In this document: positions 7,072-37,102 of the stretch, piece by piece
Numbering within the stretch: the stretch's first letter is position 1
Layout: every line of letters starts with the position of its first letter
Virus record (IMG/VR): IMGVR_UViG_3300031552_000006
Span: 1-55,906 of that record
DNA: 55,906 nucleotides
DNA from: a virus
Lineage: Duplodnaviria; Caudoviricetes
Strand: one strand, 5' to 3'
Notes under the pieces: model-generated
Seen by the model: the letters and a program-made list of their open reading frames with translations, nothing else
What the model was told of the DNA's origin: nothing
The model's database searches: none
Made by a program: the position numbers and the translations under genes

Positions 7072-7078
7072 AAAAACC

Positions 7079-7142
7079 TCCTAACCAAAAGTTCAAGGCG
7101 ATCCGGCGAAAGACTGCCGGGCTCCTTAACTTCACGTTAATA
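7079..7142 (+). mobile_element. attC-like integron recombination site at the portal stop codon
   Basis: TCCTAAC..AAGTT(C)AAGG..CCGGC-loop-GCCGG..CCTTAACTT..GTTAATA; 64 bp; extra C in left arm. Confidence 0.75.
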
Positions 7143-9302
7143 ATTCATGCCGGCACGTCTATTGATCGGTGTCATGGTCCTCCCGGGAGGAGATCCTGCC
7201 CGACCTCCCGCCGCATCTAAGACGGCCGAGTGAGGAGTGTTTGGCTGTTGTCCACCGGCCCCAGGTTGCATGTCCTCATGATAGATTCCCAATTCAGCCG
7301 CCGCATTCTGTTGGGCCAATGCCATCATTTGATTATATTCTTCCATCTGATCCATTTTATCCTCGTCAGGAATGATGCCGTCAGTATCAAGATGGAGTGA
7401 TTCAAAAGCTTCTTCGAGCATTTTCGCCCGCCCACGATCTCCAATAATTTTTCGATCCCAGTCGTTATTTGTGGCTTGAAGCATTTCGGTGCGTCTGAGC
7501 TGTAGTTGCTCCTCTATTATTAAGTGCTGGCTGGCCCGGGCCACAACATTGATATCACCACTCTTTTCGATATCATCGTCATAAAGCATAACATGTATCC
7601 AAAGAGCTTTAATGCTCGGGGATATTACTTTTTCATCAATATGAGTAATAACTCCTTTAAGGTTTTTATTTGCGGCATTCATCAGCATGCCGAGTCCTGA
7701 AGCTGTTTTGCCGGCGCCCCCGACATTTTCATTCCCATAAATATAAGCAGGAATCCCGGATTGTTCCGAAGCTTGCTGAAAGAAAAATTTAAAAACCTGC
7801 AATAACACAGCAGATCTATCGTCAGGCTGATAGAAATTTATTGCCGGATTATTGGATCCCATACCATCATCTTCAGTCGGGATAATCATCCATGGATAAA
7901 GAGTTTGAAAATCGAATCCGGGCGCGAGTCTATTTTTATAATATTCAACCAAAGGTCCCGATGCAATTCCTATATTATTACACAGTGCACGAGCAAGGGC
8001 ATTACATATGTCCTGACAGTCTGAAAATAATTCAACCGGAGCTTTACCCCATATACTGTCATTCACAGATTCGAAAGAGGCTGAAAAATAATCTCTTTTT
8101 CCCAACGGATTAGGATTGAGCCTGGCCATTATTACCCAGTTATCAATTAACCAGCAACAGACTTGATATGATTTTGTAGGGTCGTCAATCTTTTCTTCAG
8201 GTATTCCCCAGTCGAGCAGCATCTGGCCGCGGACCGAACCCCAGAAAATTATCGTATCAATTAGCGGATTAGGGTCTTCATATTCATTTCCCCTGTCTTC
8301 AATAACTGCCCTTTCCTGGTCAACCGTTAACCATTGCCGGATACCACCTCCTTGATATTCTTTGATAACAGCCTTGATGGCAGATTCTTTAAACCCGGGA
8401 ACTCCAATCATTTCATCCAAATCATTTATTCTAAGCCGTGCCCGCTCACATAAAGAGCCATCCTGAAGATTTTTAGCACCTGGACTGGGAAAAATATCGT
8501 ATCCGGATACCCGTTGCCATTCCCTGACCGCTTTTATTTCAACTTTAGGAAGCCAATCGCCGGAAGTATCTTGGGACCAACTCAATTTTTTCTTTCTTTT
8601 GACAACAGGTCCCTTTAAAAATGCGGTGGGAAAAGTGGCAAGATCTGTGATGAATTCAGATAAGGCTCCATAATAATTTCCTTCGACGAGCTGGTCATCA
8701 AGATGCAACTCCATTCGTTTCACATCTTTCTTGGCCCGTTTTCTCTTTTCCTTCATTGTTTTATCTTTGATTTCCTGTAGACGATCTCGAATATTTTGAG
8801 TAGTAATTGATTGTATGCCTTGATTTTGAATAACGGTACTTGCTTCCAATATGACTTGATTCGCAATATCAAGTTCTATCGCTTCGGGAAGGGTGGGGAC
8901 TGGAGTAGGACATATTGACCAGGGCTTATCTCCGGGAGGAAGCTCAACATCTCTGATCCAGCTTTCAAGCGCCCGGCATTTTACAGAGCTAAGTTGCATA
9001 TAAATTTCGGATCCCCCGGTTTGTCGGATTTCAGCCAGTTTATCCGGATTATAGATACCTTTCCTGCGCCTGGCGCATTCCAGCATTCTCTGATCAATCT
9101 GGTTTGATGTCTTAGCCCTTAACGCAGCATCAAAAGAAGTTCTGACATATGAATGCAGGTTTAAGAGATATGGCTTATTGTTTTCTTTCGACGCTTTATC
9201 GATTTCATCTTGTTGGGCTCTTTCTCTTTTTTGCAGCATGCTTTCCGTGACCCTGATCCCCAGGCCAAGTGGCATCCCTCCGGATTTATTTGTCATGTCC
9301 AT
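7137..9302 (-). CDS. Portal protein
   Basis: 721 aa, downstream of terminase; SGIPAY..G...GAGKTASGLGMLM motif typical of podovirus portals. Confidence 0.88.
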   Translation of the reverse strand: MDMTNKSGGMPLGLGIRVTESMLQKRERAQQDEIDKASKENNKPYLLNLHSYVRTSFDAALRAKTSNQIDQRMLECARRRKGIYNPDKLAEIRQTGGSEIYMQLSSVKCRALESWIRDVELPPGDKPWSICPTPVPTLPEAIELDIANQVILEASTVIQNQGIQSITTQNIRDRLQEIKDKTMKEKRKRAKKDVKRMELHLDDQLVEGNYYGALSEFITDLATFPTAFLKGPVVKRKKKLSWSQDTSGDWLPKVEIKAVREWQRVSGYDIFPSPGAKNLQDGSLCERARLRINDLDEMIGVPGFKESAIKAVIKEYQGGGIRQWLTVDQERAVIEDRGNEYEDPNPLIDTIIFWGSVRGQMLLDWGIPEEKIDDPTKSYQVCCWLIDNWVIMARLNPNPLGKRDYFSASFESVNDSIWGKAPVELFSDCQDICNALARALCNNIGIASGPLVEYYKNRLAPGFDFQTLYPWMIIPTEDDGMGSNNPAINFYQPDDRSAVLLQVFKFFFQQASEQSGIPAYIYGNENVGGAGKTASGLGMLMNAANKNLKGVITHIDEKVISPSIKALWIHVMLYDDDIEKSGDINVVARASQHLIIEEQLQLRRTEMLQATNNDWDRKIIGDRGRAKMLEEAFESLHLDTDGIIPDEDKMDQMEEYNQMMALAQQNAAAELGIYHEDMQPGAGGQQPNTPHSAVLDAAGGRAGSPPGRTMTPINRRAGMNY

Positions 9303-20242: not shown

Positions 20243-20255
20243 ATTAAATATAAAA

Positions 20256-20741: not shown

Positions 20742-20829
20742 ATGACAGAACAATTTATGGGCTTGGGGAGAGATAAGAATCGGTCAAAAGGAGTAGTATC
20801 AGGGTCATTAACAATGGGTACAGGATTTT

Positions 20830-21081: not shown

Positions 21082-21115
21082 GGTGGGATAATTCGGGAGG
21101 GATTATCCCACCTTT
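21082..21115 (+). terminator. Terminator-like hairpin
   Basis: GGTGGGATAAT-N9-ATTATCCCACC-TTT. Confidence 0.6.
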
Positions 21116-21140
21116 CACCTTTAATTTTATGGAGGCAATT

Positions 21141-22166: not shown

Positions 22167-22323
22167 GGAGGGCGCAATGATATATCAGATAATGATTTTT
22201 ATCGGCCATCATCAGAAGTTATTTATGGGAATTATTTTATTAATTATTGCTGGTATTTGTGCCTATTGGGGAAATCAGAGTTTTGATAAAAATGAAGAAA
22301 CTAAACCATGGGAGGATCTGTAA

Positions 22324-23559
22324 ATGAAATGTCTTCAAACTTCAGACTGGCACGCAGACGCTAATTTGGATGAATTCAAGAAGTGCTCAACCTTTCTCCT
22401 CGCCACAGCAAAAGAAGAAAATCCGGACCTGATCATTATTGCAGGCGATATCTTTAACAGCCGCGACATTAAGCTTGAATCTGAGACCTGTAAATTGGTT
22501 TTTGAAAAGATTCATATCTTATCAGAAATTGCCCCTGTCAGTATAGTCACGGGGACCCCGACACATGAGGGTACTGCTACGGAATCCCTTATCTATACCT
22601 CAGCCTTTGAGCATAATGTGACCGTTTCTTCAATGCCAGAACAACTTTTTCTTGTAAACGGTGAATTAAAAAGAGAAGTATGGACAGAGGAGGAAGGGTA
22701 TAAAATTGAACCTGACGCCATTATCTCCACAATGCCTACTCCGACAAAGAAATGGATGCAGGGCACAAATGATGAAATAGCTCAGGCATTAACTCCAATT
22801 TTCGCCGGCTTCGGGGCCGGGGCGTCAGATTATAAATGCCCCCACATCCTGATCGGTCATTTCTCAGTTCGAGGAGCATCGATTTCGGACACCCAGATCA
22901 TGGTTGGGAGAGATATTGAAATCAGTAAGGACCAACTTGCTTTAGGTAACTTTGACCTTGTTTGCTTGGGGCACATCCATAAGGCGCAGCAGATCGATAA
23001 TATTTTTTATGCTGGGTCCCTCTTTGCAAATAACTTTGGCGAAAAAGAGGATAAAGGATTTTATATCCACAATATAAATAAACCGAAGGGAACTCTCGAA
23101 CCATCCTTTAATAAGTGGGATATCCAATCGAGATTTATAAAAACTCCTGCCAAGAAACTGGTAACAGTGAGAGCGAATCTTACAAAAGAAAACTTTGACC
23201 CTATCATCGACGAGTCGGTTAAAGGAGCCTCAATAAAAATTGAACTCAGCATGTTCCAGGATGATAAGTTTTCGATCAACCTTGATGAGATTAAAAAACA
23301 GTACCTTGATGCCGGCGCCACAGAAGTAAAATTGATAACGGCACATATTCCACGTGAGAATGTGAGAAGTGAATCGATTATGAAACTTTCCACTCTGCCT
23401 GATAAAATCGAAGAAGGGGCAAAGATAAAGGAGGAATCAATTCCGGAAGGAGTCCTTGATATCGCCCATGATTTTGAAACGCTGCCAGAAAAGGAAATAT
23501 ATGGAAAAGTCACAAGCGGAGATTACGACCGGCCAGGTCCCGGGGTATCCGCATCTTGA
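22324..23559 (+). CDS. sbcD: SbcD/Mre11-like metallophosphoesterase nuclease
   Basis: SDWH, AGDIF, GTPTHE, GH, LGHIH, YAGS. Confidence 0.9.
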   Translation: MKCLQTSDWHADANLDEFKKCSTFLLATAKEENPDLIIIAGDIFNSRDIKLESETCKLVFEKIHILSEIAPVSIVTGTPTHEGTATESLIYTSAFEHNVTVSSMPEQLFLVNGELKREVWTEEEGYKIEPDAIISTMPTPTKKWMQGTNDEIAQALTPIFAGFGAGASDYKCPHILIGHFSVRGASISDTQIMVGRDIEISKDQLALGNFDLVCLGHIHKAQQIDNIFYAGSLFANNFGEKEDKGFYIHNINKPKGTLEPSFNKWDIQSRFIKTPAKKLVTVRANLTKENFDPIIDESVKGASIKIELSMFQDDKFSINLDEIKKQYLDAGATEVKLITAHIPRENVRSESIMKLSTLPDKIEEGAKIKEESIPEGVLDIAHDFETLPEKEIYGKVTSGDYDRPGPGVSAS

Positions 23560-23744
23560 TGAAACGTGTGGATATTGCCAACATTTCATATACAAAGCTG
23601 GTAATCCGGAAATAGGAGAAAGCTATTGCAGGCTTTATAAAAAATGGTTCCCGAATCAATTCGACAACAATAATAAGCCTGCACCGTCACGGACATGTAA
23701 TCGATGGTTACGCAAAACATTATTTAATTTAAACGAGAAAGAAT

Positions 23745-26225: not shown

Positions 26226-26235
26226 TTTTTAACCT

Positions 26236-26254
26236 GTATAATAACTGGTTATGT
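26236..26254 (+). mobile_element. Putative array entry site (attI/attG-like simple site)
   Basis: GTATAAT-N5-GTTATGT; GTTATGT is the exact complement of the first attC R'' (ACATAAC). Confidence 0.5.
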
Positions 26255-26540
26255 GTGGAGGAATATGGATAAGCATCAAAAAGATCTATATGAAAAAGAA
26301 ATTTTGGAAAAGTTAGTTCCTGCATTAAATAAACATTTAACGCTAAAGGAGGGTTGGAAGTTTTTGGACACAGTGAATCCAATACTTTCAAAATCGGGAT
26401 CGCCTTGGGTTTATATGATTTTTGCGGACGGTATAGCTGTTGTACTTGCTGAGAGCTTAAAAAGAACGGCAGACGCTATACGTAAAGCAGAAGGAGTCCA
26501 CGGAAGTTCTGTTGGTTGGGATAAAGACATTTTCACATAA
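26253..26540 (+). CDS. Cassette gene 1, hypothetical (likely start MDKHQ at 26265)
   Basis: GGAGG RBS; stop TAA lies inside attC R''. Confidence 0.8.
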   Translation: MWRNMDKHQKDLYEKEILEKLVPALNKHLTLKEGWKFLDTVNPILSKSGSPWVYMIFADGIAVVLAESLKRTADAIRKAEGVHGSSVGWDKDIFT

Positions 26541-26599
26541 CCTTAGTTTCAACAGTGACCGCGCAAAAGACCAATCGGCACGTTAAACCAATGTTATTT
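26535..26599 (+). mobile_element. attC site
   Basis: ACATAAC..GTTT(C)AAC(A)GTG(A)CCG-loop-CGGCACGTTAAAC..GTTATTT; 65 bp, three extrahelical bases. Confidence 0.88.
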
Positions 26600-26614
26600 T
26601 CATGGAGCAATTAA

Positions 26615-26797
26615 ATGGAACATTGTAAAAAATGTGGATACAAAACAGTTTTAGCAACATCACTGGTTACATATTTTACTCCAGACGACGAACCCTACGA
26701 ATCCGGAGATTGTGAATTACCCGAAACAATGGAAGAAGATGACGAAATTTACGCTCATGTAATGGTTGGAATACATTGGTGTGAAAGTGGAGTGTAG
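26615..26797 (+). CDS. Cassette gene 2a, small acidic CxxC protein
   Basis: GGAG RBS just after attC. Confidence 0.6.
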   Translation: MEHCKKCGYKTVLATSLVTYFTPDDEPYESGDCELPETMEEDDEIYAHVMVGIHWCESGV

Positions 26798-27125
26798 CAT
26801 GGATGGTAATCAATTCAGCAATTTGTACTTGGGTAATTTTCAACCTTCTGAGGAAAGTGCATTTCTTTGGGAGTTGGCAAAAGAATACCATGAACGAACA
26901 GAGTCATATGATAGAACTGTTTGTACTGGTCCTATTATAAATGATGCTATAGTTCCAATGAATAATTTTGAGAGAAGCAAAACATTAATGAACGCACATA
27001 AAATAAGAAAAGAAATATATCAAAGGGCCTTAGATAGAGGCATTGAAAAAAACAAAGTAAAAAAGGCTATAGTCAACTATTTATCCACTAACCCACGCAT
27101 CAACGCAGACCTGCAAACACCGTAG
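26766..27125 (+). CDS. Cassette gene 2b, hypothetical; reads into attC
   Basis: C-terminus TNPRINADLQTP is the translated attC left arm. Confidence 0.7.
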   Translation: MEYIGVKVECSMDGNQFSNLYLGNFQPSEESAFLWELAKEYHERTESYDRTVCTGPIINDAIVPMNNFERSKTLMNAHKIRKEIYQRALDRGIEKNKVKKAIVNYLSTNPRINADLQTP

Positions 27126-27148
27126 GCTGGTTATGCGGAATGTTATGA
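27086..27148 (+). mobile_element. attC site
   Basis: CACTAAC..CGCAT(C)AAC(G)CAG(A)CCTGC-loop-GTAGGCTGGTTATGCG..GTTATGA; 63 bp. Confidence 0.88.
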
Positions 27149-27157
27149 GAGTTTACT

Positions 27158-27412
27158 ATGAAATTAAGTGAGATAATAGCAGAAAGATTGTTTACTAATG
27201 GAGCTGGGCATAAAGCTCAACGCCTTGTGCTTGAAATGGAAAATGGTTCGGATGGCGGAGGATGGTGTAAAAAGACAGTTATAGATCAAATAGACAGAAT
27301 CCTCACAGAACTCACAAATCAACAGGAACAGGCAGGGAAATGTCCAGATTGTGGAGTTGAGAAAGGTGAACACCATTTATACCACTGCCCAGAGATCGGA
27401 TTCAATCTTTAA
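27158..27412 (+). CDS. Cassette gene 3, hypothetical with C-terminal Cys/His motif
   Basis: ATG 10 nt after attC; CPDC...HHLYHCP tail. Confidence 0.75.
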   Translation: MKLSEIIAERLFTNGAGHKAQRLVLEMENGSDGGGWCKKTVIDQIDRILTELTNQQEQAGKCPDCGVEKGEHHLYHCPEIGFNL

Positions 27413-27441
27413 CCGCCCGGCTGGTTATTTGGGCGTTATGC
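27305..27441 (+). mobile_element. Long attC-like site with degenerate left arm inside a CDS
   Basis: ACAGAAC..AAAT(C)AAC left; CTGGTTATTT..GTTATGC right; right arm repeated at 33055. Confidence 0.65.
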
Positions 27442-27454
27442 CTTTGGAGGGAAT

Positions 27455-27712
27455 ATGGATAGAATTCGATTAATTGAAGAAATAACAAAAATATCAAATT
27501 CATTGGACAAATCGATCTCTGATGCATCAGTCAGGGCTATTGAGGAATATCCTGATTTAGGAGTTATTTTAAATAAGGATGAAGATCCTATCGATGAGAC
27601 CTATATACAAAGAGCTAAAATAACCATGGAAAAAGCTTATGAGCGCAAAAGAACTTGCAAAGAAATAATCGATCTTATTAATAAGAACTGGCATGAGATA
27701 GTCAGTGGTTAA
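27455..27712 (+). CDS. Cassette gene 4, hypothetical helical protein
   Basis: GGAGG RBS after GTTATGC; stops 6 nt before next attC. Confidence 0.8.
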   Translation: MDRIRLIEEITKISNSLDKSISDASVRAIEEYPDLGVILNKDEDPIDETYIQRAKITMEKAYERKRTCKEIIDLINKNWHEIVSG

Positions 27713-27718
27713 TTTCAA

Positions 27719-27776
27719 GCATAATACTCATTCAACCACCCGGACAGCATAGCTGACGGTTAACTTAATGTTAGTT
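27719..27776 (+). mobile_element. attC-like site, slightly degenerate
   Basis: GCATAAT..TT(C)AAC..CAGC-ATA-GCTG..GTTAA..GTTAGTT; R'' matches the cassette start GTTATGC at 6 of 7 positions. Confidence 0.7.
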
Positions 27777-27790
27777 GGAAAGGAGAGAAT

Positions 27791-27988
27791 ATGCCAAAAA
27801 AATCACAAGATACACAGGTAGTTGATGAAATAACAGCGATTGTTAAAAATTTTTATGCACAGAGTCATACAGATGAAGCCCCTATAGTTTCACGTGAAAA
27901 TATAGTTTTAATGGTCGGCGCGGTTTGTAAGGATTGCGAAGAAGCTATCCGGCTGATTAGAACTATCAGGCAGGTTACAGGGGGATAA
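27791..27988 (+). CDS. Cassette-position gene 5, hypothetical
   Basis: AAAGGAG RBS straight after attC. Confidence 0.7.
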   Translation: MPKKSQDTQVVDEITAIVKNFYAQSHTDEAPIVSRENIVLMVGAVCKDCEEAIRLIRTIRQVTGG

Positions 27989-28004
27989 AAAGACTGGAAA
28001 CTAT

Positions 28005-28128
28005 TTGACATCCAAACCCATATAATATATTCTCCAAAATGCTATGACAACTCAAATCGAAAATAAATTTGACCTCGCTTCCGGGATAATCTTAATGGGT
28101 TGTCATAGCACCGGGGGCGGGGTTTTTT
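28005..28128 (+). promoter_or_regulatory. Promoter plus structured leader with interleaved inverted repeats and U-tract
   Basis: TTGACA at 28005; A 28041-28051 / A' 28099-28109; B 28071-28084 / B' 28111-28124. Confidence 0.7.
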
Positions 28129-28142
28129 ATTGGAGAGATAGG

Positions 28143-28631
28143 ATGGGTATACCAGAGGGATATTGTCAATGCGGATGTAATCAAAAAACGTCTATTTCAA
28201 CGGTAAATAATAAAAATAGAGGATTGGTTAAAGGTAAACCTTTAAAATACGTAAGAGACCATGTGAATAAAGTCAAAAATTATAAAGGGGAAAACCATCC
28301 TCAATTTAAAGGAAGAATATATAGAAGGGGATATATTTATCTTTACATGCCATCACACCCAAAAGCAACAAAACAGGGATACATAGCGGAACATCGACTT
28401 GTAATGGAATCTAAAATAGGAAGATATTTAAAATCATGCGAGGTGGTACACCACATCAATGAAATTAAAGATGATAATAAGCCCGAAAATTTATTGCTTT
28501 TTAAAAGCGCTGGAAAACATTCAATAAGGGCCAAGCATGTTTTAAAAAATAATAAAGACGGTAGATTCATCTCTCCCAATAATTGTCAGTGGCTGACATT
28601 AGAAGAAAACGCCGCAAAAGGGAATAGTTGA
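28143..28631 (+). CDS. HNH homing-type endonuclease
   Basis: CQCGC N-terminus, GENHP, GYIAEHRLVME..IGRYL...EVVHHINEIKDDNKPENL. Confidence 0.88.
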   Translation: MGIPEGYCQCGCNQKTSISTVNNKNRGLVKGKPLKYVRDHVNKVKNYKGENHPQFKGRIYRRGYIYLYMPSHPKATKQGYIAEHRLVMESKIGRYLKSCEVVHHINEIKDDNKPENLLLFKSAGKHSIRAKHVLKNNKDGRFISPNNCQWLTLEENAAKGNS

Positions 28632-30271
28632 TGTCCTTAATTTTACGCAAACACCAATTTGAATTTGGTCAAATAGTAGAAGAAATCCGAAGCGGGAAGC
28701 CTATAAATAGAATTGTAGCTTATGTTGTTCCTGGAGGTGGAAAATCCTTATTTTCCCTATTATGCTGGCCATTAATAAAATATGGCCACTCAAATTCAAT
28801 ATGTTGGGTAGTCCCACGATTAACCCTAGCATATCAGGCTGAACTCAATGCGATTGATCCATTTTTTAAGAAAGAGCTCAATCATGGCATGATTATCAGG
28901 GCAGCAACAAACGAATATAACCCAAGACGGAACTGTACAGGCTACACAACAACCTACCAGGCAATAGGACAGGATTCTAATTTTTATAACGTTCGGGAAT
29001 TTGAACAAAGGAAATATATCCTCATCCTTGATGAAAATCATCATATAGCCGCAGATAATGGTCAATGGCATAAATCGATATCCCCTTTAGTAGAAAGATG
29101 TAATTTATTAATACTTCTTTCAGGTACACTCAATAGAGGCGATGAAGATAAAATCGCTTTCATGGATTACGAAGACAGAGGTAATAATATTTGCCTTGAC
29201 CTTAGTGAAAATGATTATACCCGTGTTATACGCTATACCCGGAGTGATGCATTAAAAGAAAAAGCAATACTCCCCATCAAATTTACATTATTTGACGGCG
29301 ATGTTGAATGGGAAAGGAAAGGAAAAGAATTTAAAACAAAACTGTCAAAGGCTTATGAACATTCCGGAGATGCAATACAAACGGCTTTAAATACTGCATT
29401 TGGAAATCATATCATGAAAAATGGATTTGATCATTGGATCGAATATAAAAAATATGATCCAGGATCAAAAATAGCGATTGTCGCAGCAAATATTAAACAT
29501 GCCAAATCATTACTATCAATCCTTAAGGATTGGGGTTTTAATCCTTTAATAGCAACAAGTGATGATTCTTTGGAAGCTCTAAAAGCAATAAAAGAATATC
29601 GATTTGGATCATGTGATACTATGGTCTTTTGTGGTATGTGCTCAGAAGGTCTCGATGTTCCTGAAATGACACATATTATAGTTCTCACTCATTTTCGCAC
29701 CGAAGCATATATTGAACAGCTTGTATCCAGGGCTGTACGGGTTAATAAAAAGGCCGGACCTTATGAAAGTCAGGTGGCTTATATCTTCGCTCCTGATGAT
29801 CCTCCTTTCAGAAGAGTAGTAGAAAAAATAAAAAAGGAACAATCAAATATCATTGTAAATGATTCTGATAAATCCGAATTACCAGAAAAAAAGAGAAATG
29901 GCAGAGGAGAAAGAGGGCCAGGCATCACGTTTATAAACGGCTCCATATCCGGCGCCCGTGAAATATCACTTGGTGAGATCCCGTCAGGCTATACTCCGCC
30001 CCCTACAATCAGCGAACAGGAACACTCATTAAGAAAACAGATAGATGACCATGTGAAAAGCTTCTGCCGCGTTTATATGGCAGAGCATAAAAAAGTGAAT
30101 GGAGAGATAAAGACTGTTTTTAAAAAGTCTCGGGACCTAATGGAACTTTCAGAACTCGAGCGCTGCTATGAATATGTCAAAGATTTCTATTCATTAGTTG
30201 AGAGGCCAAAAAAGAAAGTCAGGAAAAGAGGCAGATTAATACCTACTAAGGCAGTACCCTGGATAAATTAA
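28628..30271 (+). CDS. Superfamily 2 (ResIII/DEAD-like) helicase
   Basis: LRKHQ Q-motif, PGGGKS, DENHH, SGT, EGLDVP, QLVSRAVR. Confidence 0.9.
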   Translation: MMSLILRKHQFEFGQIVEEIRSGKPINRIVAYVVPGGGKSLFSLLCWPLIKYGHSNSICWVVPRLTLAYQAELNAIDPFFKKELNHGMIIRAATNEYNPRRNCTGYTTTYQAIGQDSNFYNVREFEQRKYILILDENHHIAADNGQWHKSISPLVERCNLLILLSGTLNRGDEDKIAFMDYEDRGNNICLDLSENDYTRVIRYTRSDALKEKAILPIKFTLFDGDVEWERKGKEFKTKLSKAYEHSGDAIQTALNTAFGNHIMKNGFDHWIEYKKYDPGSKIAIVAANIKHAKSLLSILKDWGFNPLIATSDDSLEALKAIKEYRFGSCDTMVFCGMCSEGLDVPEMTHIIVLTHFRTEAYIEQLVSRAVRVNKKAGPYESQVAYIFAPDDPPFRRVVEKIKKEQSNIIVNDSDKSELPEKKRNGRGERGPGITFINGSISGAREISLGEIPSGYTPPPTISEQEHSLRKQIDDHVKSFCRVYMAEHKKVNGEIKTVFKKSRDLMELSELERCYEYVKDFYSLVERPKKKVRKRGRLIPTKAVPWIN

Positions 30272-30293
30272 TGTTATATTTGGAAGGAAAGGG

Positions 30294-30485
30294 ATGAAAA
30301 TGGATGACATGGGATTTTATTTTTTACAAAGAGATATCCAGGATATTATGGATAAACTTAAAAAATTGCAAAGCGCATATTTAAAAGAAACAGGGAGAGA
30401 GTTTATTGATGGTCAAAGGATAAATGGTTTAATGCAGTGTCCGGCATGTGGCCATTTTAAACCACTACCGCGGCACGGCGCTTAA
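30294..30485 (+). CDS. Small protein with C-terminal CxxC
   Basis: 63 aa with RBS. Confidence 0.6.
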   Translation: MKMDDMGFYFLQRDIQDIMDKLKKLQSAYLKETGREFIDGQRINGLMQCPACGHFKPLPRHGA

Positions 30486-30635
30486 TATTTCAAAGCACCC
30501 GGAGCCTCCAAGGGTGATAGGCTGACGCCTCGTAAACCAAGTCCTTCTCGTATATCCGGGATCATTCGTGATTGAATTATGAAAGAGGGATACAGCCTAA
30601 CATTTTAAAAGCTAACATTTTAAAAGGAGAGATCA

Positions 30636-30886
30636 ATGTCGGAAACAAAACAGAAAATTATCACGTTGTTAAATGAAACGAAAAGAGATGGAATAGGTTA
30701 TCTGATTAACTATCTCGTAGAAAACGGTGTTGTAGTTGCGGCAAGCTGATAAATGTTGGAGAAATTTGCAATAAGTATTCAAGATACCGATACCCATATG
30801 ATGAGATTGAATCTGGTAAAATCAGATCCTTTGTAGTCTCTAGGATAAGCAAAAAGATCAACAAGGCTCAGTGGTGGGATAGATGA
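30636..30886 (+). pseudogene. Fused gene remnants (HD-hydrolase-like N-terminus, then RRKRCCSC fragment in another frame)
   Basis: 37-aa ORF 30636-30749 with strong RBS; startless frame RRKRCCSCGKLINVGE... begins inside it. Confidence 0.45.
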
Positions 30887-31068
30887 AAAATCAAGCAGAC
30901 TATTCAAAATATAAATGTCCTTATTCTCATCTCGAAAAAGAATGCGGGCATGAATTACATGGCCCTGAAGGGTATGAAGATACATATGGTGTATGGTGCC
31001 CCTGCGGATTTAGAGGCCCGGTATTTTACCTCGATCCCAAAGATTTAAAACTTGAACCCAAGGAGTAA
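30883..31068 (+). CDS. Small Cys/His-rich protein
   Basis: CPY..CGH..WCPCG. Confidence 0.65.
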   Translation: MKNQADYSKYKCPYSHLEKECGHELHGPEGYEDTYGVWCPCGFRGPVFYLDPKDLKLEPKE

Positions 31069-31071
31069 GCA

Positions 31072-31275
31072 ATGAAAAGGCCAAATGATAGCGCAGGTTA
31101 TAATACTGCAAAGTATATAAAATACCTTGAATCCCGTATCCAGTCCATGCAGGAAGTGGTAGACGCTGCAATTAAATATCATGAATATTCTGATTTTGAT
31201 CCTAAAGAAGGATGCTGTCCAGAATGTGATTTGCTATTAACAATTGACAAATATAAAGCCATAAAGGAGGGATGA
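31072..31275 (+). CDS. Hypothetical protein
   Basis: AAGGAG RBS; CCPEC. Confidence 0.65.
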   Translation: MKRPNDSAGYNTAKYIKYLESRIQSMQEVVDAAIKYHEYSDFDPKEGCCPECDLLLTIDKYKAIKEG

Positions 31276-31276
31276 T

Positions 31277-31486
31277 ATGAATGCAAAAATACATGATGGT
31301 GTAGGTGGATTTTATATAGAATTAATCACAGAAGATCCTAAAGAAATTTGTCAATTAGCAAAACTTAGCCTTAATACTTTGGCAAAACAATCTATAAAAA
31401 TTCATGTATCATTTATGACGGATGGCATGGTGATAAGCGGATTTTCTTTAAGGAAAAAGAAAGATCTGACCCTAACAATTGGTTAA
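31277..31486 (+). CDS. Hypothetical protein
   Basis: AAGGAGG RBS. Confidence 0.65.
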   Translation: MNAKIHDGVGGFYIELITEDPKEICQLAKLSLNTLAKQSIKIHVSFMTDGMVISGFSLRKKKDLTLTIG

Positions 31487-31949
31487 TTAAATGATTCATC
31501 CAGATCCTAACCCTGTTCATATAAAGAAAAAAATAAATGGATAACTGTTACGCACAAAAAAGTGAAAAATCAAAAGTAGAACATATATATAATTTTGATA
31601 AGGGCAAGACGTATTGTGGATTAAGAGATATTTATGCCAAATATAAAATATTATCAGGACGCTCTATTTGCAAAAAATGTTTGTCAATATTTCACAAGGA
31701 AAAGGAATGATTTATGGACACAATCTACACCCAAATGTACCCGAGCCCTAAAGTAAAACAATGGAGATCAGAAAAATCTATATATATCAGGTAAATCTCA
31801 TTATCATAGGGCATGTCAAAAAGAATATGACAGAATCAGATGGTCGAAGAAAAACAAATCGAGGATGGAACAATTATCTTTGATGATATGCAAGCAATGA
31901 TTTGTTCGCTGAATCTTTTAAATGAATATTTAATGGAGAGAGGGATAAA

Positions 31950-32273
31950 ATGAAAAGATGTGATCCATGCCCAAATCCAATTGACTTCTGTTCTTGTATT
32001 TTGCATCCCGATTACATCTTAAAGAAAAAGAGAAAAGACAGGTATAGCACATATGATTCTATTAAACAGATTGTAAGTGAAATCGCAAAGGATTCGGGGT
32101 TATCGATCGAGGATCTTACTGGAAAAAGCAAAATGCAAAGGATTACAAGGGTGCGGACCATGGCTATAAAAAGATGCAGGAAAAATACAAACGCCACTCT
32201 TCAGGAAATAGGTGATTTCTTTAACAGGAATCATGCAACAATAATTTACACTTTGGGAAAAGGATTAAAATAA
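31950..32273 (+). CDS. DnaA C-terminal (domain IV) HTH-like protein
   Basis: DLTGKSK...R..A......TLQEIGDFFNRNHATIIY. Confidence 0.85.
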   Translation: MKRCDPCPNPIDFCSCILHPDYILKKKRKDRYSTYDSIKQIVSEIAKDSGLSIEDLTGKSKMQRITRVRTMAIKRCRKNTNATLQEIGDFFNRNHATIIYTLGKGLK

Positions 32274-32437
32274 TTGCAATTATACCGATATAGATGGAAG
32301 AATAACTCGAAGCGCAAAACTTTATATAACCGGATATTTAAAGTTCTTGTACGAGGCCGGACCAATAGCGCAAAGGTGCAATTTATTGATAACGGCCAGA
32401 AGGAAATAATCAGCAGGAATGCAATGGAGAGAGTGAA

Positions 32438-32794
32438 ATGAAAGAAATTAAATTCAGAGCATGGGATAAAAAAGACAAACACTGGGTTTCTGATGCTTGG
32501 GTTAAAACCCACATTGGGTTATATGATCAATATCCTGAATTGATTTTCATGCAATATACCGGGCTATTGGATAAAAATGGTATGCCGATCTATGAAGGCG
32601 ACATTGTTAAAATACTCATGTATCAAGGAGATCTGAAATACGAACCTGAAATATTTACAATTGAATGGATAGAGAAAGATTTAGGATTTGGCGCAAGAGA
32701 TATTATTGATAAAGATACATGGGGTTTAGGTGATAATGATATTGAAATAATTGGCGATATCCATGAAAACCCTGAATTACTCGAAGAGGGGTAA
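32438..32794 (+). CDS. YopX family protein
   Basis: IKFRAWD, MQYTGLLDKNG..IYEGDIV, EIIGDIHENPELL. Confidence 0.92.
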   Translation: MKEIKFRAWDKKDKHWVSDAWVKTHIGLYDQYPELIFMQYTGLLDKNGMPIYEGDIVKILMYQGDLKYEPEIFTIEWIEKDLGFGARDIIDKDTWGLGDNDIEIIGDIHENPELLEEG

Positions 32795-32806
32795 AATGAC
32801 AAAGAG

Positions 32807-33058
32807 GTGAAAATGCGATTAACAATAAAAAATAGACTAATATTATGTTGGGAAATACTGACTGTTAAAAGCGGCCATGTTCATAATGCCGATGAAAAAC
32901 AGTTATCAACATTTATTCGTGGTTATGAAGCCGGACGCAAAGATCAGCAATACGAAAATACCCTACAAACAAACTTAGACCGGGCTCCTGAATGCAATTG
33001 TTTTAAACCAGATACTTTAGTGCATGAAAGTTGTCCAGTTCATACTTTAAAACGTTAA
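32807..33058 (+). CDS. Hypothetical protein with C-terminal Cys/His motif
   Basis: CNC...HESCPVH tail; stop abuts attC right arm. Confidence 0.7.
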   Translation: MKMRLTIKNRLILCWEILTVKSGHVHNADEKQLSTFIRGYEAGRKDQQYENTLQTNLDRAPECNCFKPDTLVHESCPVHTLKR

Positions 33059-33087
33059 CCGCCTGGCTGGTTATTTGGGCGTTATGC
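32955..33087 (+). mobile_element. Long attC-like site, left arm decayed within CDS
   Basis: Right arm 33055-33096 matches 27409-27450 at 40 of 42; left remnant TAG(A)CCGGGC. Confidence 0.6.
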
Positions 33088-33102
33088 CTTCGGAGGAAAT
33101 AA

Positions 33103-33432
33103 ATGGATATTGCATTTTTTCATGATTGTGCAGTTGATGGATGTTACAAAAAATCAATCAAAGGAAAACAGATGTGCAGACAGCATCAAGCCGAATATGA
33201 TAGCGGCAAAAAATTAAAGGCCTTTTATGGCAAGACGGTACAAAAGAATTTAAATTGTAAATATTTAGAACTATTAGATTTTGAATATTTGGATTGTGAA
33301 TATTTAGTTGGTGTTTCTATTTGTGATCTTAATGATGCTCAGAAATCTGATTGTTGTCCGTTAAGGGGAACTGAATATGAGCATAACCAAACCTTTCACA
33401 GCGACCGCGCCACAGATCGGCGCGACGCGTGA
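33103..33432 (+). CDS. Cassette gene, Cys-rich hypothetical; reads through attC
   Basis: GGAGG RBS; tail HNQTFHSDRATDRRDA is translated attC. Confidence 0.75.
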   Translation: MDIAFFHDCAVDGCYKKSIKGKQMCRQHQAEYDSGKKLKAFYGKTVQKNLNCKYLELLDFEYLDCEYLVGVSICDLNDAQKSDCCPLRGTEYEHNQTFHSDRATDRRDA

Positions 33433-33447
33433 AGGCTATCGTTATGA
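33381..33447 (+). mobile_element. attC site
   Basis: GCATAAC..CCTT(T)CAC(A)GCG(A)CCGCGCC-loop-GGCGCGACGCGTGAAGG..GTTATGA; R'' is the exact complement of GTTATGC at 33081. Confidence 0.9.
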
Positions 33448-33461
33448 GACTTGGAGGAAAT

Positions 33462-33662
33462 ATGGTAAAAGCAAAAAAATATAAATGTCCGCATCACGCA
33501 TGTAAAACTACAGCTACATCTATGCCGGGTGAGTCACAGGATAGTTTTAATATCCGGCTCATAAACGAGGGATGGATATGGAGATTTAAAAGAATAAGGG
33601 GCAAAACAGATTGGGATTACATGCGTTTTTGCCCTGACTGTTCTAAGAATCATTTAATATGA
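33462..33662 (+). CDS. Small zinc-binding hypothetical protein
   Basis: GGAGG RBS after attC; CPHHAC...FCPDC. Confidence 0.7.
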   Translation: MVKAKKYKCPHHACKTTATSMPGESQDSFNIRLINEGWIWRFKRIRGKTDWDYMRFCPDCSKNHLI

Positions 33663-33682
33663 GAATTGTTAGAAGGAGGAAG

Positions 33683-33717
33683 CTCCCGGACGGTATGATG
33701 TGCCCGGGGATTTTTTT
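33683..33717 (+). terminator. Terminator at early/late convergence
   Basis: GC-rich stem followed by T7. Confidence 0.6.
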
Positions 33718-33922
33718 ATTTTTCTCGCTCATCAATCTTGGCTTGTGTATCATGGGATGAAGGTCTGATAAATTCAAGAGCATTGTTAAAAACCATATAT
33801 ATTTTCATCATCCACTTAACTTTGAATTGCTTTGATATGCTCTTAAGCATTATCAAAAATATACCCATGGCAAGCCAATTCTGATCTATAAATTCCTTAA
33901 CAGGTATATCTAAGGATATCAT
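33716..33922 (-). CDS. Small membrane protein (holin-like)
   Basis: Hydrophobic segment; lysis context. Confidence 0.5.
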   Translation of the reverse strand: MISLDIPVKEFIDQNWLAMGIFLIMLKSISKQFKVKWMMKIYMVFNNALEFIRPSSHDTQAKIDEREK

Positions 33923-34295
33923 ATTATCCTCCCCTCTTTATCCAGGCATCTTTTCAACTTTGAGGTTACGAAAATCTTCAGCAGTTGGATTTTCAAGAAT
34001 TGTTCCATCAGTGAATTTCATAAAGATCGGTACACCTTTTTCGGCAACTGCCCCAATCAAAGATACAATTAAATCTATTGTTTTCTTATCCATATCAACC
34101 TTCCTTTATATAATAACCATTTATTTAAATTGTTATTGGTTTAGTTAATATCCATTGCTCTATTTCGCGAGCATGTTTTAAAACTTTTACTGATTCTTCA
34201 GCAAGTTTAAGTCTACGCTGAATTTCTTTTTTTATTTTTTTGCTAGTTGTAAATTGTCTAAGCGTCAATTGTTTCATGTCCTTTTTCCATTATAA

Positions 34296-34688
34296 TTATT
34301 CAAGTTTTACGAAATAGGGAGTAGCTGCTTCGATAAAAGAAGTCAGGGCCTTTGTTATCGCAAGCACTTTTGCATTAGCGACATCCTTCGATGCTTTGCC
34401 TTCTACATACTGAGCCATGGATTCACTGGCAGCATTGTGAGTGTCGGCATATATATCACCATACTTTTTTAGATTCTGATAAGTCTCTTCCGAAATGAGT
34501 TTCTTATCTCTCAGATCCACGATAGTATCCTTGGTCTGGTTATAGGTAACCTGTGATCTATCCAGGATTTGATACATTTTTGCCTCGAAAGAAAGAGGTT
34601 GCCCGGATGGCCCAACGGTCGCACATGCCATAATCATCATCATCATCATAACCATAAAAATCATTAATAGTTCTCTTTTTCTTTTCAT
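34296..34688 (-). CDS. Lipoprotein in lysis module (spanin-like candidate)
   Basis: Basic N-terminus, hydrophobic stretch, lipobox-like IMAC. Confidence 0.65.
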   Translation of the reverse strand: MKRKRELLMIFMVMMMMMIMACATVGPSGQPLSFEAKMYQILDRSQVTYNQTKDTIVDLRDKKLISEETYQNLKKYGDIYADTHNAASESMAQYVEGKASKDVANAKVLAITKALTSFIEAATPYFVKLE

Positions 34689-35530: not shown

Positions 35531-35851
35531 TTACATCTTACTTCCATTGTTCATTTTATTTCTGATAGAGACTAAGGTTTGCTGCATTAATTGGGCGGTC
35601 GTATCCAGGCTATGTAAACATTCTGTTTGGCGATCAAGTTTTTGATCTATTTTTTCAAAACGCAATTTGCCTTCTTCGAGATCTTTGACAACGGCTTTGT
35701 GTTCTGCCATGAATACATCTTTATCCAATTTACAGTCCACTTTATAATTAAGCCACTTAAATGTTCCACCAGTTGCCAAGATTAATACTCCTCCAATGAT
35801 GCTTTCTATTAGATTCATATATAATTCTCCGAAAATAAATAAGGTCGACAC
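35531..35851 (-). CDS. Membrane-anchored coiled-coil protein (holin/antiholin-like)
   Basis: N-terminal TM plus coiled coil, upstream of endolysin. Confidence 0.55.
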   Translation of the reverse strand: MSTLFIFGELYMNLIESIIGGVLILATGGTFKWLNYKVDCKLDKDVFMAEHKAVVKDLEEGKLRFEKIDQKLDRQTECLHSLDTTAQLMQQTLVSIRNKMNNGSKM

Positions 35852-35929
35852 AGTATACTTTCAAATTCATAACTCACTATAAGCATAAAATCAATTTATT
35901 ATATATGAACCATTTAATCATGTATTTAT

Positions 35930-37102
35930 TTAAGGTCTACTCCTGTATATTTTCCCATTCGGATATGTCCCGGCCAGAGCAATCCCATCACCTAGATAAG
36001 ATAACGAACGAATATATGTTTCCGAACCCTGCTGACCCAGATCGGTCCAGGTTGCACCATAATCAACGCTCCTGTATATTTTACCATTAAGAGCTGTACC
36101 CGCCAGGGCAATACCATTGCCTAGATAAGATAACGAAAAAATATATGTTTCCGAACCCTGCTGACCCAGATCGGTCCAGGTTGCACCATAATCAACGCTC
36201 CTATATATTTTACCATTCGGATATGTCCCGGCCAGAGCAATACCATTGCCTAGATAAGATAACGAAAAAATATATGTTTCCGAACCCTGCTGACCCAGAT
36301 CGGTCCAGGTTGCACCATAATCAACGCTCCTGTATATTTTCCCATTCGGATATGTCCCGGCCAGAGCAATCCCATTGCCGAGATAAGACAACGAAAAAAT
36401 TTGTGTTTCCGAACCCTGCTGACCCAGATCGGTCCAGGTTGCACCATAATCAACGCTCCTGTATATTTTACCATTAGGATATGTACCCGCCAGGGCAATC
36501 CCATTGCCGAGATAAGACAACGAACGAATATATGTTTCCGAACCCTGCTGACCCAGATCGGTCCAGGTTGCACCATAATCAACGCTCCTATATATTTTCC
36601 CATTCGGATATGTCCCGGCCAGAGCAATCCCATTGCCGAGATAAGACAACGAAAGAATTTGTGTTTCCGAACCCTGCTGACCCAGATCGGTCCAGGTTGC
36701 ACCATAATCAACGCTCCTGTATATTTTACCATTAAGAGCTGTACCCGCCAGGGCAATACCATTGCCGAGATAAGACAACGAAAGAATTTGTGTTTCCGAA
36801 CCCTGCTGACCCAGATCGGTCCAGGTTGCACCAATACTTTCCTGTATGCCTGGCAACATTCCGTCATGCTGAAGAAGTAAGTCATCTTTATCAGTCAATT
36901 CAAAATTTACTCTGGCCCCAAATTTAGTAATAGCCCCAGTTCCACCATTGGCAATCGGAACTGTGTCACCTGCAACATATCGACCAAGGGCAGTAATATC
37001 ACCAGTACCATTTTCTATCGCTTTTACGGGTATTTTATCGCCAGCATGGACGGTGGTTACTAAAGATAGTAAAATCAATGTAAAATATAATATTTTTCTC
37101 AT
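35930..37102 (-). CDS. Seven-bladed BNR/Asp-box beta-propeller protein with signal-peptide-like N-terminus and fibre motif
   Basis: SxDxGxTW repeats x7; VPIANGGTGA motif; MRKILYFTLILLSLVTTVHA. Confidence 0.85.
   Translation of the reverse strand: MRKILYFTLILLSLVTTVHAGDKIPVKAIENGTGDITALGRYVAGDTVPIANGGTGAITKFGARVNFELTDKDDLLLQHDGMLPGIQESIGATWTDLGQQGSETQILSLSYLGNGIALAGTALNGKIYRSVDYGATWTDLGQQGSETQILSLSYLGNGIALAGTYPNGKIYRSVDYGATWTDLGQQGSETYIRSLSYLGNGIALAGTYPNGKIYRSVDYGATWTDLGQQGSETQIFSLSYLGNGIALAGTYPNGKIYRSVDYGATWTDLGQQGSETYIFSLSYLGNGIALAGTYPNGKIYRSVDYGATWTDLGQQGSETYIFSLSYLGNGIALAGTALNGKIYRSVDYGATWTDLGQQGSETYIRSLSYLGDGIALAGTYPNGKIYRSRP
35938..36832 (-). repeat. Seven tandem 129-bp coding repeats
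   Basis: Near-identical 43-codon units. Confidence 0.95.

What the first reader, a model, noticed from the sequence alone, without database searches (positions are those of the whole stretch)
32955..33662. Second cassette cluster containing a perfectly bounded single cassette
Seen: 33082-33441 begins G|TTATGC, carries an RBS and a 109-aa Cys-rich ORF, and ends in an attC whose R'' (GCATAAC) is the exact complement of its own start. The next gene begins G|TTATGAGA, the same opening as at 27142. Inference: cassette acquisition occurred at more than one locus, or one ancestral array was split by the intervening HNH-helicase-YopX segment.
Basis: partly seen in the sequence, partly recalled or inferred. 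Interest (0 to 1): 0.8.

Follow-up and report, generated by a model that had tools for sequence, protein, structure and literature searches.

The report
Integron gene cassette in a phage
A complete salt-marsh phage genome carries small early genes as integron-type cassettes whose folded recombination sites match those of chromosomal integrons in Desulfobacteraceae bacteria; phage cassette clusters are already known, so this is a well-supported new example that also points to the phage's host.

Summary
Window 33082-33441 starts at G|TTATGC, has a GGAGG ribosome site and a 109-aa ORF with 8 Cys, and ends in a 66-nt imperfect hairpin (R'' GCATAAC 33381-33387, R' GTTATGA 33441-33447).

The hairpin is a genuine attC site. 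A covariance model built only from sites in Desulfobacteraceae-family genomes, including an array of 24 sites beside a bona fide integron integrase, finds exactly six sites in the 55.9-kb phage. All lie on the + strand (34.9-38.9 bits; next best 11.9). It finds none in about 120 kb of unrelated phage DNA.

The site has three extrahelical bases at positions 16, 20 and 24, as published for attC. The phage has no integrase or other recombinase, so this is a CALIN that would depend on a host IntI.

A 97-99% identical phage carries a different gene at this place.

"Perfectly bounded" is overstated:
- the upstream site has a decayed left arm;
- R'' fits its own cassette start only one base better than the in-situ R';
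- homology with the relative resumes about 11 nt right of G|TT.

Acquisition at several loci is favoured over a split array.

Phage CALINs are published (Qi et al. 2023), and this scan has found them before on other DNA.

The parts
32807..33058 (+). Upstream ORF (83 aa). Its last ~100 nt lie inside the upstream attC, and the Cys/His tail is encoded by the attC loop.
   Evidence: The 3' part from 32954 recurs in G2 fused to another ORF body.
32955..33089 (+). Long-form (135-nt) attC with an intact right arm and a decayed left arm (R'' has lost AAC). It supplies the R' GTTATGC at 33081-33087.
   Evidence: R2 34.9 bits, E 2.1e-6. It does not fold as an attC, z +0.33. It was a seed of model R1, so its R1 score is by construction.
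33082..33441 (+). The cassette-shaped unit: it runs from the TT of the preceding R' to the G of its own R'.
33092..33096 (+). GGAGG ribosome-binding site, 6 nt before the ATG.
33103..33432 (+). 109-aa ORF with 8 Cys. Only residues 1-50 are conserved (invariant C9, C14, C25, H28). The last ~17 codons lie inside the attC.
33380..33449 (+). Short-form attC. R'' is at 33381-33387 and R' at 33441-33447, with 5-nt spacers, three extra bases on the R'' arm and a crossover point at 33441|33442.
   Evidence: R2 38.9 bits, E 2e-7, with alignment. DNA fold -19.2 kcal/mol (bottom strand) against -18.1 (top strand).
33462..33662 (+). Last gene of the operon (66 aa, Cys-rich). It starts after G|TTATGAGA and has no attC of its own.
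   Evidence: It is 92% identical in G2.
33684..33717 (+). Hairpin followed by a T7 run: the likely end of the + strand operon. The fold is weak.
   Evidence: z -0.56. The terminator scan did not list it because the loop is over 8 nt.
26534..26601 (+). attC of the first cluster.
   Evidence: R2 37.3 bits. Fold z -3.1. It is 82% identical to a site in host MAG contig G003:C369.
27085..27150 (+). attC of the first cluster; its R' is G|TTATGAGA.
   Evidence: R2 38.9 bits.
27304..27443 (+). Long-form attC of the first cluster with a decayed left arm. Its right arm plus RBS is 89% identical to 33047-33101.
27716..27778 (+). Degenerate attC-like element (R'' ends in AAT). The same element precedes the 66-aa gene in G2.
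   Evidence: Neither R1 nor R2 detects it.
7078..7144 (+). Lone attC at the portal gene stop, at the right end of a 1,050-nt segment (6087-7136) that is absent from G2.
   Evidence: R2 37.4 bits.

Best explanation
The stretch is a small cluster of two genuine integron attC sites without an integrase (a CALIN). It sits at the end of the early/replication operon of a complete 55.8-kb tailed phage.

The unit 33082-33441 has the full anatomy of an integron gene cassette: the TT of a crossover site, an RBS, one ORF in the sense orientation, and a 3' attC.

The sites belong to the attC family of the sedentary chromosomal integrons of Desulfobacteraceae. That family is therefore the likely host group.

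Inferred mechanism:
- While phage DNA is single-stranded during replication or recombination, the bottom strand of an attC folds into an imperfect hairpin.
- A host integron integrase, acting in trans, cuts between A and C of the conserved AAC (G|TT on the top strand).
- It then exchanges, excises or inserts cassettes by attC x attC recombination.

Shown here: the identity and structure of the sites, their kinship with sites next to IntI genes, the absence of any phage recombinase, and cassette-scale gene differences between near-identical phages.

Inferred only: that IntI made these particular junctions, and that any of the sites is still active.
For: 1. Kinship with host sites.
- Model R1, built from 9 phage and metagenome copies, hits 16 of 61 Desulfobacteraceae-family genomes.
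- I tested 5 of those 16 for IntI, and 5 of 5 have TIGR02249 matches of 413-469 bits against a cut-off of 265.
- In G025, intI is followed 876 nt away by 24 + strand hits. They fall in the same three size classes as the phage sites.

2. The host sites are real attCs.
- R'' complements the start of its own cassette at 114 of 132 positions, against 53 of 132 for the in-situ R'.
- 19 of 25 pairs show changes on both sides. The covariation score is 0.454 against 0.131 in shuffles (0 of 500 reach it).

3. The host-only model R2 finds 6 sites in the window and nothing else. It also finds 3 sites in G2 and 4 in G1.

4. Geometry. The R2 alignment of 33380-33449 has 7-nt R boxes with AAC/GTT, 5-nt spacers, and unpaired bases at positions 16, 20 and 24 of the R'' arm with 6 bp between the first and last. 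This matches the published rule: EHBs at 16, 20 and 23/24, a T as the last one on the bottom strand, and a 6-bp stem (Nivina 2016, PMC5027507, passages read). The bottom strand is also more stable than the top.

5. No recombinase. PF00589, TIGR02249, PF00239 and PF01797 find nothing in the complete genome.

6. Gene turnover. G2 (blocks 91-99.6% identical) has a different Cys-rich ORF between an attC right arm and the 66-aa gene. The left junctions are identical through GTTATG.

7. The segment 6087-7136 ends exactly at G|TT.

8. In the window, own-start complementarity is 20 of 30 against 12 of 30 in situ.
Against: - Homology with G2 resumes at the RBS (33452/33453), about 11 nt right of G|TT. 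The 7-8 nt in between differ. The junction in front of the 27455 gene likewise looks displaced toward the RBS.
- Other breakpoints are not at attC sites: 26638 (seen in 3 of 3 runs), 30275-30485 and 30718.
- Of the 6 sites, 2 have decayed left arms and do not fold as attC. A seventh element is degenerate.
- The own-start signal (20 of 30) is much weaker than in the host array (114 of 132). For this cassette it is 4 of 6 against 3 of 6.
- The cargo is not host-like. The 109-aa, 108-aa and 66-aa proteins match 0 of 61 family genomes. The conserved core of the 109-aa ORF is a common small phage gene.
- R2's training sites were picked with the phage-derived R1, so the two models are not fully independent.
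- E-values come from a shortened calibration and are rough.
Confidence: 0.68

Rival explanations
1. The attC sequences are relics. They are genuine attC-derived DNA, captured once from a host array or cassette, but they are no longer integrase substrates in the phage. Present-day gene turnover would come from ordinary homologous or illegitimate recombination. The conserved block of about 45 nt (right arm plus RBS) would act as a patch of homology, much as the promoter/stem-loop motifs (PeSLs) do in T4-type phages.
For: - Breakpoints with G2 fall at the RBS, not at G|TT.
- The right arm plus RBS is 89% identical between 27401-27455 and 33047-33101, while the left arms have decayed.
- Several indels have no attC at their edges.
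- The phage encodes its own SbcCD-like recombination nuclease.
Against: - Four of the six sites still fold, keep AAC/GTT and keep the extrahelical-base geometry.
- R'' still fits its own cassette start better than the in-situ R' (20 against 12 of 30).
- One indel ends exactly at G|TT.
- The left junction of the swapped cassette is identical through GTTATG in both phages.
Confidence: 0.25
2. The hairpins are kept in the phage for expression. They would act as intercistronic mRNA structures (processing, stability or weak termination sites) between early genes, and recombination would be irrelevant.
For: - The sites lie between co-oriented genes, just upstream of strong RBSs.
- attC sites are thought to contain weak terminators (stated in Qi 2023, section read).
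- The right arm is more conserved than the left.
Against: - No known RNA family matches. Rfam finds only 2 tRNAs in 20000-34500.
- The terminator scan lists none of the sites, and promoter-like sites are not enriched (31 found against 31.1 expected).
- In 58 host sites the 18-pair inner helix changes mostly by double substitutions. My tally from the table is 225 double-change cells against 12 G-U cells, a pattern expected for DNA hairpins rather than RNA.
- The left arms lie inside ORFs, so cleavage there would truncate the message.
Confidence: 0.06
3. The palindromes arose by chance in AT-rich phage DNA.
For: None beyond the shortness of the R boxes.
Against: - There are six hits at 35-39 bits and the next best is 11.9.
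- There are 0 hits in about 120 kb of control phage DNA.
- The sites belong to the same family as those in host integron arrays.
Confidence: 0.01

Closest known systems
CALINs (clusters of attC sites lacking an integron integrase) in phage genomes. Qi, Rajabal, Ghaly, Tetu and Gillings 2023, Front Microbiol, PMC9892861 (abstract and sections 3.1 and 3.4 read).
   Same: - Two or more attC sites occur in a virulent-looking phage with no IntI.
- The cassettes are co-oriented and encode unknown small proteins.
- A host integrase is proposed to act in trans.
   Different: - The attC family is matched here to arrays next to IntI genes in one bacterial family.
- A near-identical phage carries other cassettes at the same places.
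- Several sites are decayed.
- The cargo core is a phage-typical gene.
- No recombination assay was done here, whereas they showed that IntI1 recombines 5 of 6 phage attCs.
Sedentary chromosomal integrons with taxon-specific attC families. Ghaly et al. 2021, Commun Biol, PMC8352920 (passages read): 11 taxon-specific attC covariance models, one of them for Deltaproteobacteria.
   Same: - The attC family is the same: size classes of about 66-71, 89-93 and 131-137 nt, the same arms and the same extrahelical-base positions.
- Each cassette starts at G|TT.
   Different: - The phage has no intI and no recognisable attI.
- There are only 2-5 sites per cluster.
- Own-start complementarity is weaker.
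- The loops of the long sites are unrelated to the conserved host loop and are translated as Cys-rich protein tails.
VCR-type long attC sites of the Vibrio cholerae superintegron (VCR2: 133 bp, three extrahelical bases G16, T20, T24). Nivina et al. 2016, PMC5027507 (passages read).
   Same: - The long form is about 133 nt.
- There are three extrahelical bases at positions 16, 20 and 24, with 6 bp between the first and last.
- The last one is a T on the bottom strand.
   Different: - The sequence is unrelated and the host group is different.
- In 33380-33449 the base at position 16 is A on the bottom strand, not the usual G.
PeSL promoter/stem-loop cassettes of T4-type phages. Arbiol et al. 2010, PMC2839356, and Comeau et al. 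2014, PMC4122927 (search listing and abstract starts only).
   Same: - Small accessory phage genes are flanked by conserved intergenic stem-loop motifs.
- Close relatives differ by whole genes at these motifs.
   Different: - PeSLs are promoter-terminator motifs that recombine by homology.
- The motifs here are homologues of integrase substrates. They carry no promoter signal, and they are shared with bacterial integron arrays.

Membership tests
integron attC site | R'' and R' boxes with the conserved AAC...GTT triplets, which form the R box. | tested here: met
   AAC is at 33385-33387 and GTT at 33441-33443. In situ, 6 of 7 R-box positions pair. In 58 host sites of the family the triplet pairs are kept in 58, 55 and 57 of 58.
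integron attC site | An imperfect hairpin of 57-141 nt with 5-6-nt spacers, an L box and a variable loop, in which the bottom strand is the more stable (Nivina 2016). | tested here: met
   The site is 66 nt from R'' to R', with 5-nt spacers on both arms. The fold is -19.2 kcal/mol for the bottom strand and -18.1 for the top, z -4.4.
integron attC site | Two or three extrahelical bases on the R''/L'' arm at positions 16, (20) and 23/24, with a 6-bp stem between the first and last. On the bottom strand the first is usually G and the last is T. | tested here: met
   The R2 alignment leaves top-strand T, A and A unpaired at positions 16, 20 and 24, with 3+3 bp between them. On the bottom strand these are A16, T20 and T24, so the last T is as published but position 16 is A rather than G. 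The family consensus has C, T, A on the top strand, which is G, A, T on the bottom.
integron attC site | Homology to, or co-occurrence with, sites in cassette arrays next to an integron integrase gene. | tested here: met
integron attC site | Recombined by an integron integrase at G|TT. | not testable with these tools
   Only Logan contigs were available, not raw reads. No bench assay was possible.
integron gene cassette | One promoterless ORF in the sense orientation between the TT of the preceding R' and the G of its own attC. | tested here: met
   The unit is 33082-33441. An RBS is present, and no promoter-like site scoring 9 of 12 or better is listed on the + strand inside 33058-33103.
integron gene cassette | R'' is complementary to the cassette's own 5' end rather than to the in-situ R'. 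| tested here: inconclusive
   The 7-mer is an exact complement. Beyond GTT the match is 4 of 6 for the own start and 3 of 6 in situ. Over 5 cassettes in the window the counts are 20 against 12 of 30, and over 22 cassettes in the host array 114 against 53 of 132.
CALIN (two or more attC sites within 4 kb and no integrase; criterion as quoted from Qi 2023 and Ghaly 2021) | At least two attC sites less than 4 kb apart, with no IntI nearby. | tested here: met
   The sites 32955-33089 and 33380-33449 are 290 nt apart. No PF00589 or TIGR02249 match exists anywhere in the complete genome.
complete integron | An intI gene with an adjacent attI and a Pc promoter. | tested here: not met
   attI was not searched because no model was available.
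PeSL-type regulatory cassette (T4-type phages) | An early promoter plus a terminator stem-loop in each intergenic motif. | tested here: not met
   Promoter-like sites are not enriched (31 against 31.1 expected), none is listed at the motifs, and the terminator scan lists none of the sites. The PeSL definition was taken from titles and abstract starts only.

The most novel reading that the evidence does not exclude
Phage-typical early genes are being turned into integron cassettes inside the phage. A host-type attC would be fused onto a phage gene, so the ORF reads into the site or through its loop and gains a Cys-rich tail. During infection the host's integrase would then shuffle these genes among several loci of the phage genome, and possibly into the host array. 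Phages would then be both a birthplace and a shuttle for new cassettes. The origin of cassettes is a long-standing open question.
Probability: 0.2. Interest if true: 0.65.

Novelty: new member of a known kind. Interest (0 to 1): 0.38.

Why it matters
- It gives a culture-free host assignment for an uncultured salt-marsh phage. The attC type points to Desulfobacteraceae, and a syntenic prophage-like replication module in one genome of that family supports this.
- It adds a case in which near-identical phages differ by cassette-sized genes at attC sites.
- It shows attC sites embedded in coding sequence on a phage-typical gene, which bears on how cassettes are born.
- It does not change the picture of integrons. 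Phage CALINs are published, and this scan has met them repeatedly.

Tried and rejected
- No close DNA match in the phage record collection (blastn).
- The 109-aa protein found no relative in viral contigs as a single query. An alignment query found 10 loci.
- YopX, the helicase, the 66-aa protein and the 85-aa protein gave only distant loci or the single relative G2.
- Laying contigs of three runs added no independent variant. The 53-kb contig of X1 repeats the G2 arrangement. X2 and X3 hold only short low-depth pieces. Stretches without cover say nothing.
- AlphaFold2 on the 11-row alignment gave mean pLDDT 54 and pTM 0.37. That was too poor for a fold search, so none was run.
- Pfam gave nothing for the three small proteins of this cluster, and PHROGs gave only one marginal hit, E 0.00092, for the 109-aa ORF.
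- In the MAG that holds L023, the best TIGR02249 match was 118.9 bits, below the cut-off. It sits beside a transposase-like ORF, so it is not an IntI. That MAG therefore shows arrays but no integrase.
- I first read the type-A right arm as a short hairpin of its own. I rejected that once the complementary left arm, about 100 nt upstream, was found.
- I looked for an attC after the ORF homologues in L087 and L088. They carry a 9-nt inverted pair at the gene's two ends, but no attC fold was found.
- MAFFT alignment A3 of short host sites misplaced the R' boxes, so I did not use it for a model.
- Supplementary tables of Qi 2023 and Ghaly 2021 were not opened. They may list attC models or phages that bear on novelty.
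Full report
**What the window is.** The first 127 nt repeat at the end, and IMG/VR records the window as a virus with direct terminal repeats that is 100% complete. It is therefore a whole phage genome of about 55.8 kb. The + strand block from about 20.4 to 33.7 kb is the early/replication module. It holds two tRNAs, a phrog_13782 protein, an SbcD-like phosphoesterase, an SbcC-like protein, an HNH nuclease, a superfamily-2 helicase, a DnaA-C-like protein and YopX. The finding lies at the 3' end of this block.

**The observation.**
- G|TTATGC at 33081|33082
- GGAGG at 33092-33096
- a 109-aa ORF (33103-33432) with 8 Cys
- GCATAAC at 33381-33387
- G|TTATGAGA at 33441|33442, and the same opening with its G at 27142

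The 66-nt element folds as single-stranded DNA. The bottom strand gives -19.2 kcal/mol with z -4.4 (0 of 200 shuffles fold as well), and the top strand gives -18.1.

**How the element family came into view.** Repeats of a 'right arm' plus RBS occur at 27401-27455 and 33047-33101, 89% identical. An exact-pattern scan found the arm in:
- a second phage, G2 (42.6 kb, 73% complete);
- a distant phage, G1 (64 kb);
- three metagenome contigs;
- a 3.5-kb contig of a Desulfobacteraceae MAG.

In these copies a conserved 'left arm' lies about 100 nt upstream, inside the 3' end of the preceding ORF. It is the reverse complement of the right arm, with three extra bases at fixed places. The short hairpins, such as 33380-33449, are the same design with a small loop.

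**Proof that these are attC sites.**
- Model R1, built from nine long copies, hit 16 of 61 genomes of the MAG's family. Three large genomes had 10-22 hits each.
- I then tested 5 of those 16 genomes for the integron-integrase family TIGR02249. All 5 have matches of 413-469 bits against a cut-off of 265.
- In G025 the integrase gene is followed, 876 nt from its start and on the opposite strand, by 24 hits, all on one strand. The 4 hits on the other strand are weaker mirror images. Spacing is 300-900 nt, in size classes of about 66-71, 89-93 and 131-137 nt.
- Across 22 cassettes of that array, the R'' of each site complements the start of its own cassette at 114 of 132 positions, against 53 of 132 for the R' that follows it in place. 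This is the footprint of crossover at G|TT.
- Fifty-eight host sites aligned to the model are 87.1% paired. Nineteen of 25 pairs change on both sides, and the covariation score is 0.454 against 0.131 in shuffles (0 of 500 reach it). Slid controls give 0.02-0.09. That alignment was fitted to the model.

**The reverse test.** Model R2 was built from those 58 host sites only. With filters off it finds exactly six sites in the phage, all on the + strand:

| Site | Bits |
|---|---|
| 27085-27150 | 38.9 |
| 33380-33449 | 38.9 |
| 7078-7144 | 37.4 |
| 26534-26601 | 37.3 |
| 27304-27443 | 36.8 |
| 32955-33089 | 34.9 |

The next best hit scores 11.9 bits. R2 also finds 3 sites in G2, 4 in G1, 8 or more in the MAG contig and 6 in one metagenome contig. 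It finds none at E <= 1 in 16 unrelated phage loci of about 120 kb. The host sites were chosen with R1, so the two models are not fully independent. The integrase adjacency, the covariation and the own-start footprint are what establish the host sites as real attCs.

**Geometry.** In the R2 alignment, 33380-33449 has 7-nt R boxes, 5-nt spacers, and unpaired bases at positions 16, 20 and 24 of the R'' arm with 3+3 bp between them. Nivina et al. 2016 describe two or three extrahelical bases at 16, (20) and 23/24, a 6-bp stem between the first and last, a T as the last one on the bottom strand, 5-6-nt spacers and lengths of 57-141 bp (passages read). Here the bottom strand would carry A16, T20 and T24. 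Only position 16 departs from the usual G.

**No enzyme in the phage.** Six-frame searches of the complete genome find no tyrosine recombinase, integron integrase, serine recombinase or Y1 transposase. G1 and G2 have no PF00589 match either. Any reaction needs a host integrase in trans.

**Host.** Three lines point to Desulfobacteraceae-family bacteria of salt-marsh sediment:
- The attC family is shared with that bacterial family.
- G025 holds a syntenic block homologous to window 19.0-26.2 kb plus the helicase (71% nt and 68% aa identity for the helicase).
- The three runs that hold parts of the window are labelled salt marsh metagenome.

**Relatives and boundaries.** G2 shares blocks at 91-99.6% identity.

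Second cluster:
- G2 has the same right arm through GTTATG, then a different RBS and a different Cys-rich ORF.
- A degenerate attC-like element follows; the same element sits at window 27716-27778.
- The 66-aa gene comes next.
- G2 therefore lacks the 109-aa unit, but it lacks all of 30718-33452 and has other genes there.
- On the right, homology resumes at the RBS (33452/33453). The 7-8 nt between G|TTA and GGAGG differ.

First cluster:
- G2 joins the tail and right arm of the 32807 gene (32954-33109, 92% identical) to another ORF body in front of the 27455 gene.
- The switch again lies near the RBS.

Other differences have no attC at their edges: 30275-30485, 30718, and a loose end at 26638 seen in 3 of 3 runs.

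One boundary is exact. Window 6087-7136, whose right end is the lone attC, is missing from G2, and homology resumes precisely after the G of G|TTAATA. On the left side, however, G2 has 7 nt that the window lacks.

**State of the phage sites.** The two long sites (27304-27443 and 32955-33089) have decayed left arms and do not fold as attC (z -0.49 and +0.33). In 32955-33089 the AAC of R'' is lost. The cassette in question is thus bounded on its left by a site that is probably dead. Over five cassettes in the window, R'' fits the own start at 20 of 30 positions and the in-situ R' at 12 of 30. For this cassette the counts are 4 and 3 of 6.

**Cargo.**
- Only the first ~50 residues of the 109-aa ORF are conserved (invariant C9, C14, C25, H28). 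Homologues are 59-65 aa, with one of 175 aa.
- Ten viral loci carry the homologue. None has an attC of this family beside it.
- Two of them (L087, L088) carry a 9-nt inverted pair at the gene's ends, with no attC fold found. By eye, one more (L095) has an attC-like hairpin after the gene; it was not tested further.
- The 109-aa, 108-aa and 66-aa proteins match 0 of 61 family genomes. An empty answer there does not prove absence.
- The cargo looks phage-derived, and the ORF reads 52 nt into its attC.

**Split array or several acquisitions.** In the G025 prophage-like block the SbcC-like gene is followed, after one 118-aa ORF, directly by the helicase, and there is no attC site at that junction. 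The 40-kb region gave two weak hits elsewhere with R1 (15.3 and 12.0 bits) and one weak hit with R2 (26.7 bits). The helicase is therefore core, and the clusters are additions on either side of it. With the lone late-region sites, at different places in the window and in G2, this favours acquisition at several loci.

**Comparison with what is known.** Phage CALINs are published. Qi et al. 2023 report 17 CALINs, and IntI1 recombined 5 of 6 phage attCs they tested. Taxon-specific attC models are published too (Ghaly 2021). Earlier notes of this scan describe many phage CALINs on other DNA, one of them also matched to a bacterial family. This finding is a new, well-documented member of that kind.

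Noticed in passing
window 27304-27443 and 32955-33089; L023 549-680; L007 7290-7424 and 13477-13610: In the long attC sites the left arm is translated in one fixed frame, giving a recurring peptide of the form HN.QIN.DRA. The ~70-nt loop encodes a CxxC...CxxC-like tail of the upstream ORF, and the stop falls at the start of the right arm. In host arrays the loop is instead a conserved non-coding-looking sequence.
   Followed up: partly
window 6087-7144: A 1,050-nt segment with three small minus-strand ORFs and a + strand attC lies at the portal gene stop. It is absent from G2, which has 7 nt there. The right edge is exactly G|TT, but the ORFs run against the attC orientation.
   Followed up: partly
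G2 (L033 12900-12968; record positions about 31021-31974): G2 has its own insert of about 955 nt with a lone attC (R2 32.4 bits), at a place where the window has 4 nt (3502-3507). That site is 78% identical to window 27089-27144.
   Followed up: partly
window 22324-26225: SbcD-like and SbcC-like genes (a palindrome or hairpin nuclease pair) lie immediately upstream of the first attC cluster. Whether the phage nuclease acts on folded attC hairpins is open.
   Followed up: no
window 30485-30580: A non-coding stretch after the helicase region is 99.6% identical in G2. A similar stretch follows the gene after the helicase in the G025 prophage-like block. No Rfam match was found.
   Followed up: no
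window 26228-26256: Just after the SbcC-like stop there is a 29-nt piece that starts like the R'' arm of the ~90-nt host attC class and ends in GTTATGTGT. It may be a collapsed attC that supplies the start of the first cassette.
   Followed up: no
window 35811-36884: Seven tandem 129-nt units (82-94% identical) lie inside a minus-strand gene.
   Followed up: no
L087 2674-2895; L088 1674-1897: Homologues of the 109-aa ORF core in two other phages are flanked by a 9-nt inverted pair (GTTATAGGC ... GCCTATAAC). The two phages diverge right after the second copy, and no attC fold was found.
   Followed up: partly
G025, G024 and G026 chromosomes: attC sites of this family are scattered over many chromosomal places far from the integrase genes. 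For example, G025 has 22 R1 hits on three contigs, although only 56 candidates per genome were scored. Many integrase-less clusters therefore exist in the hosts too.
   Followed up: no
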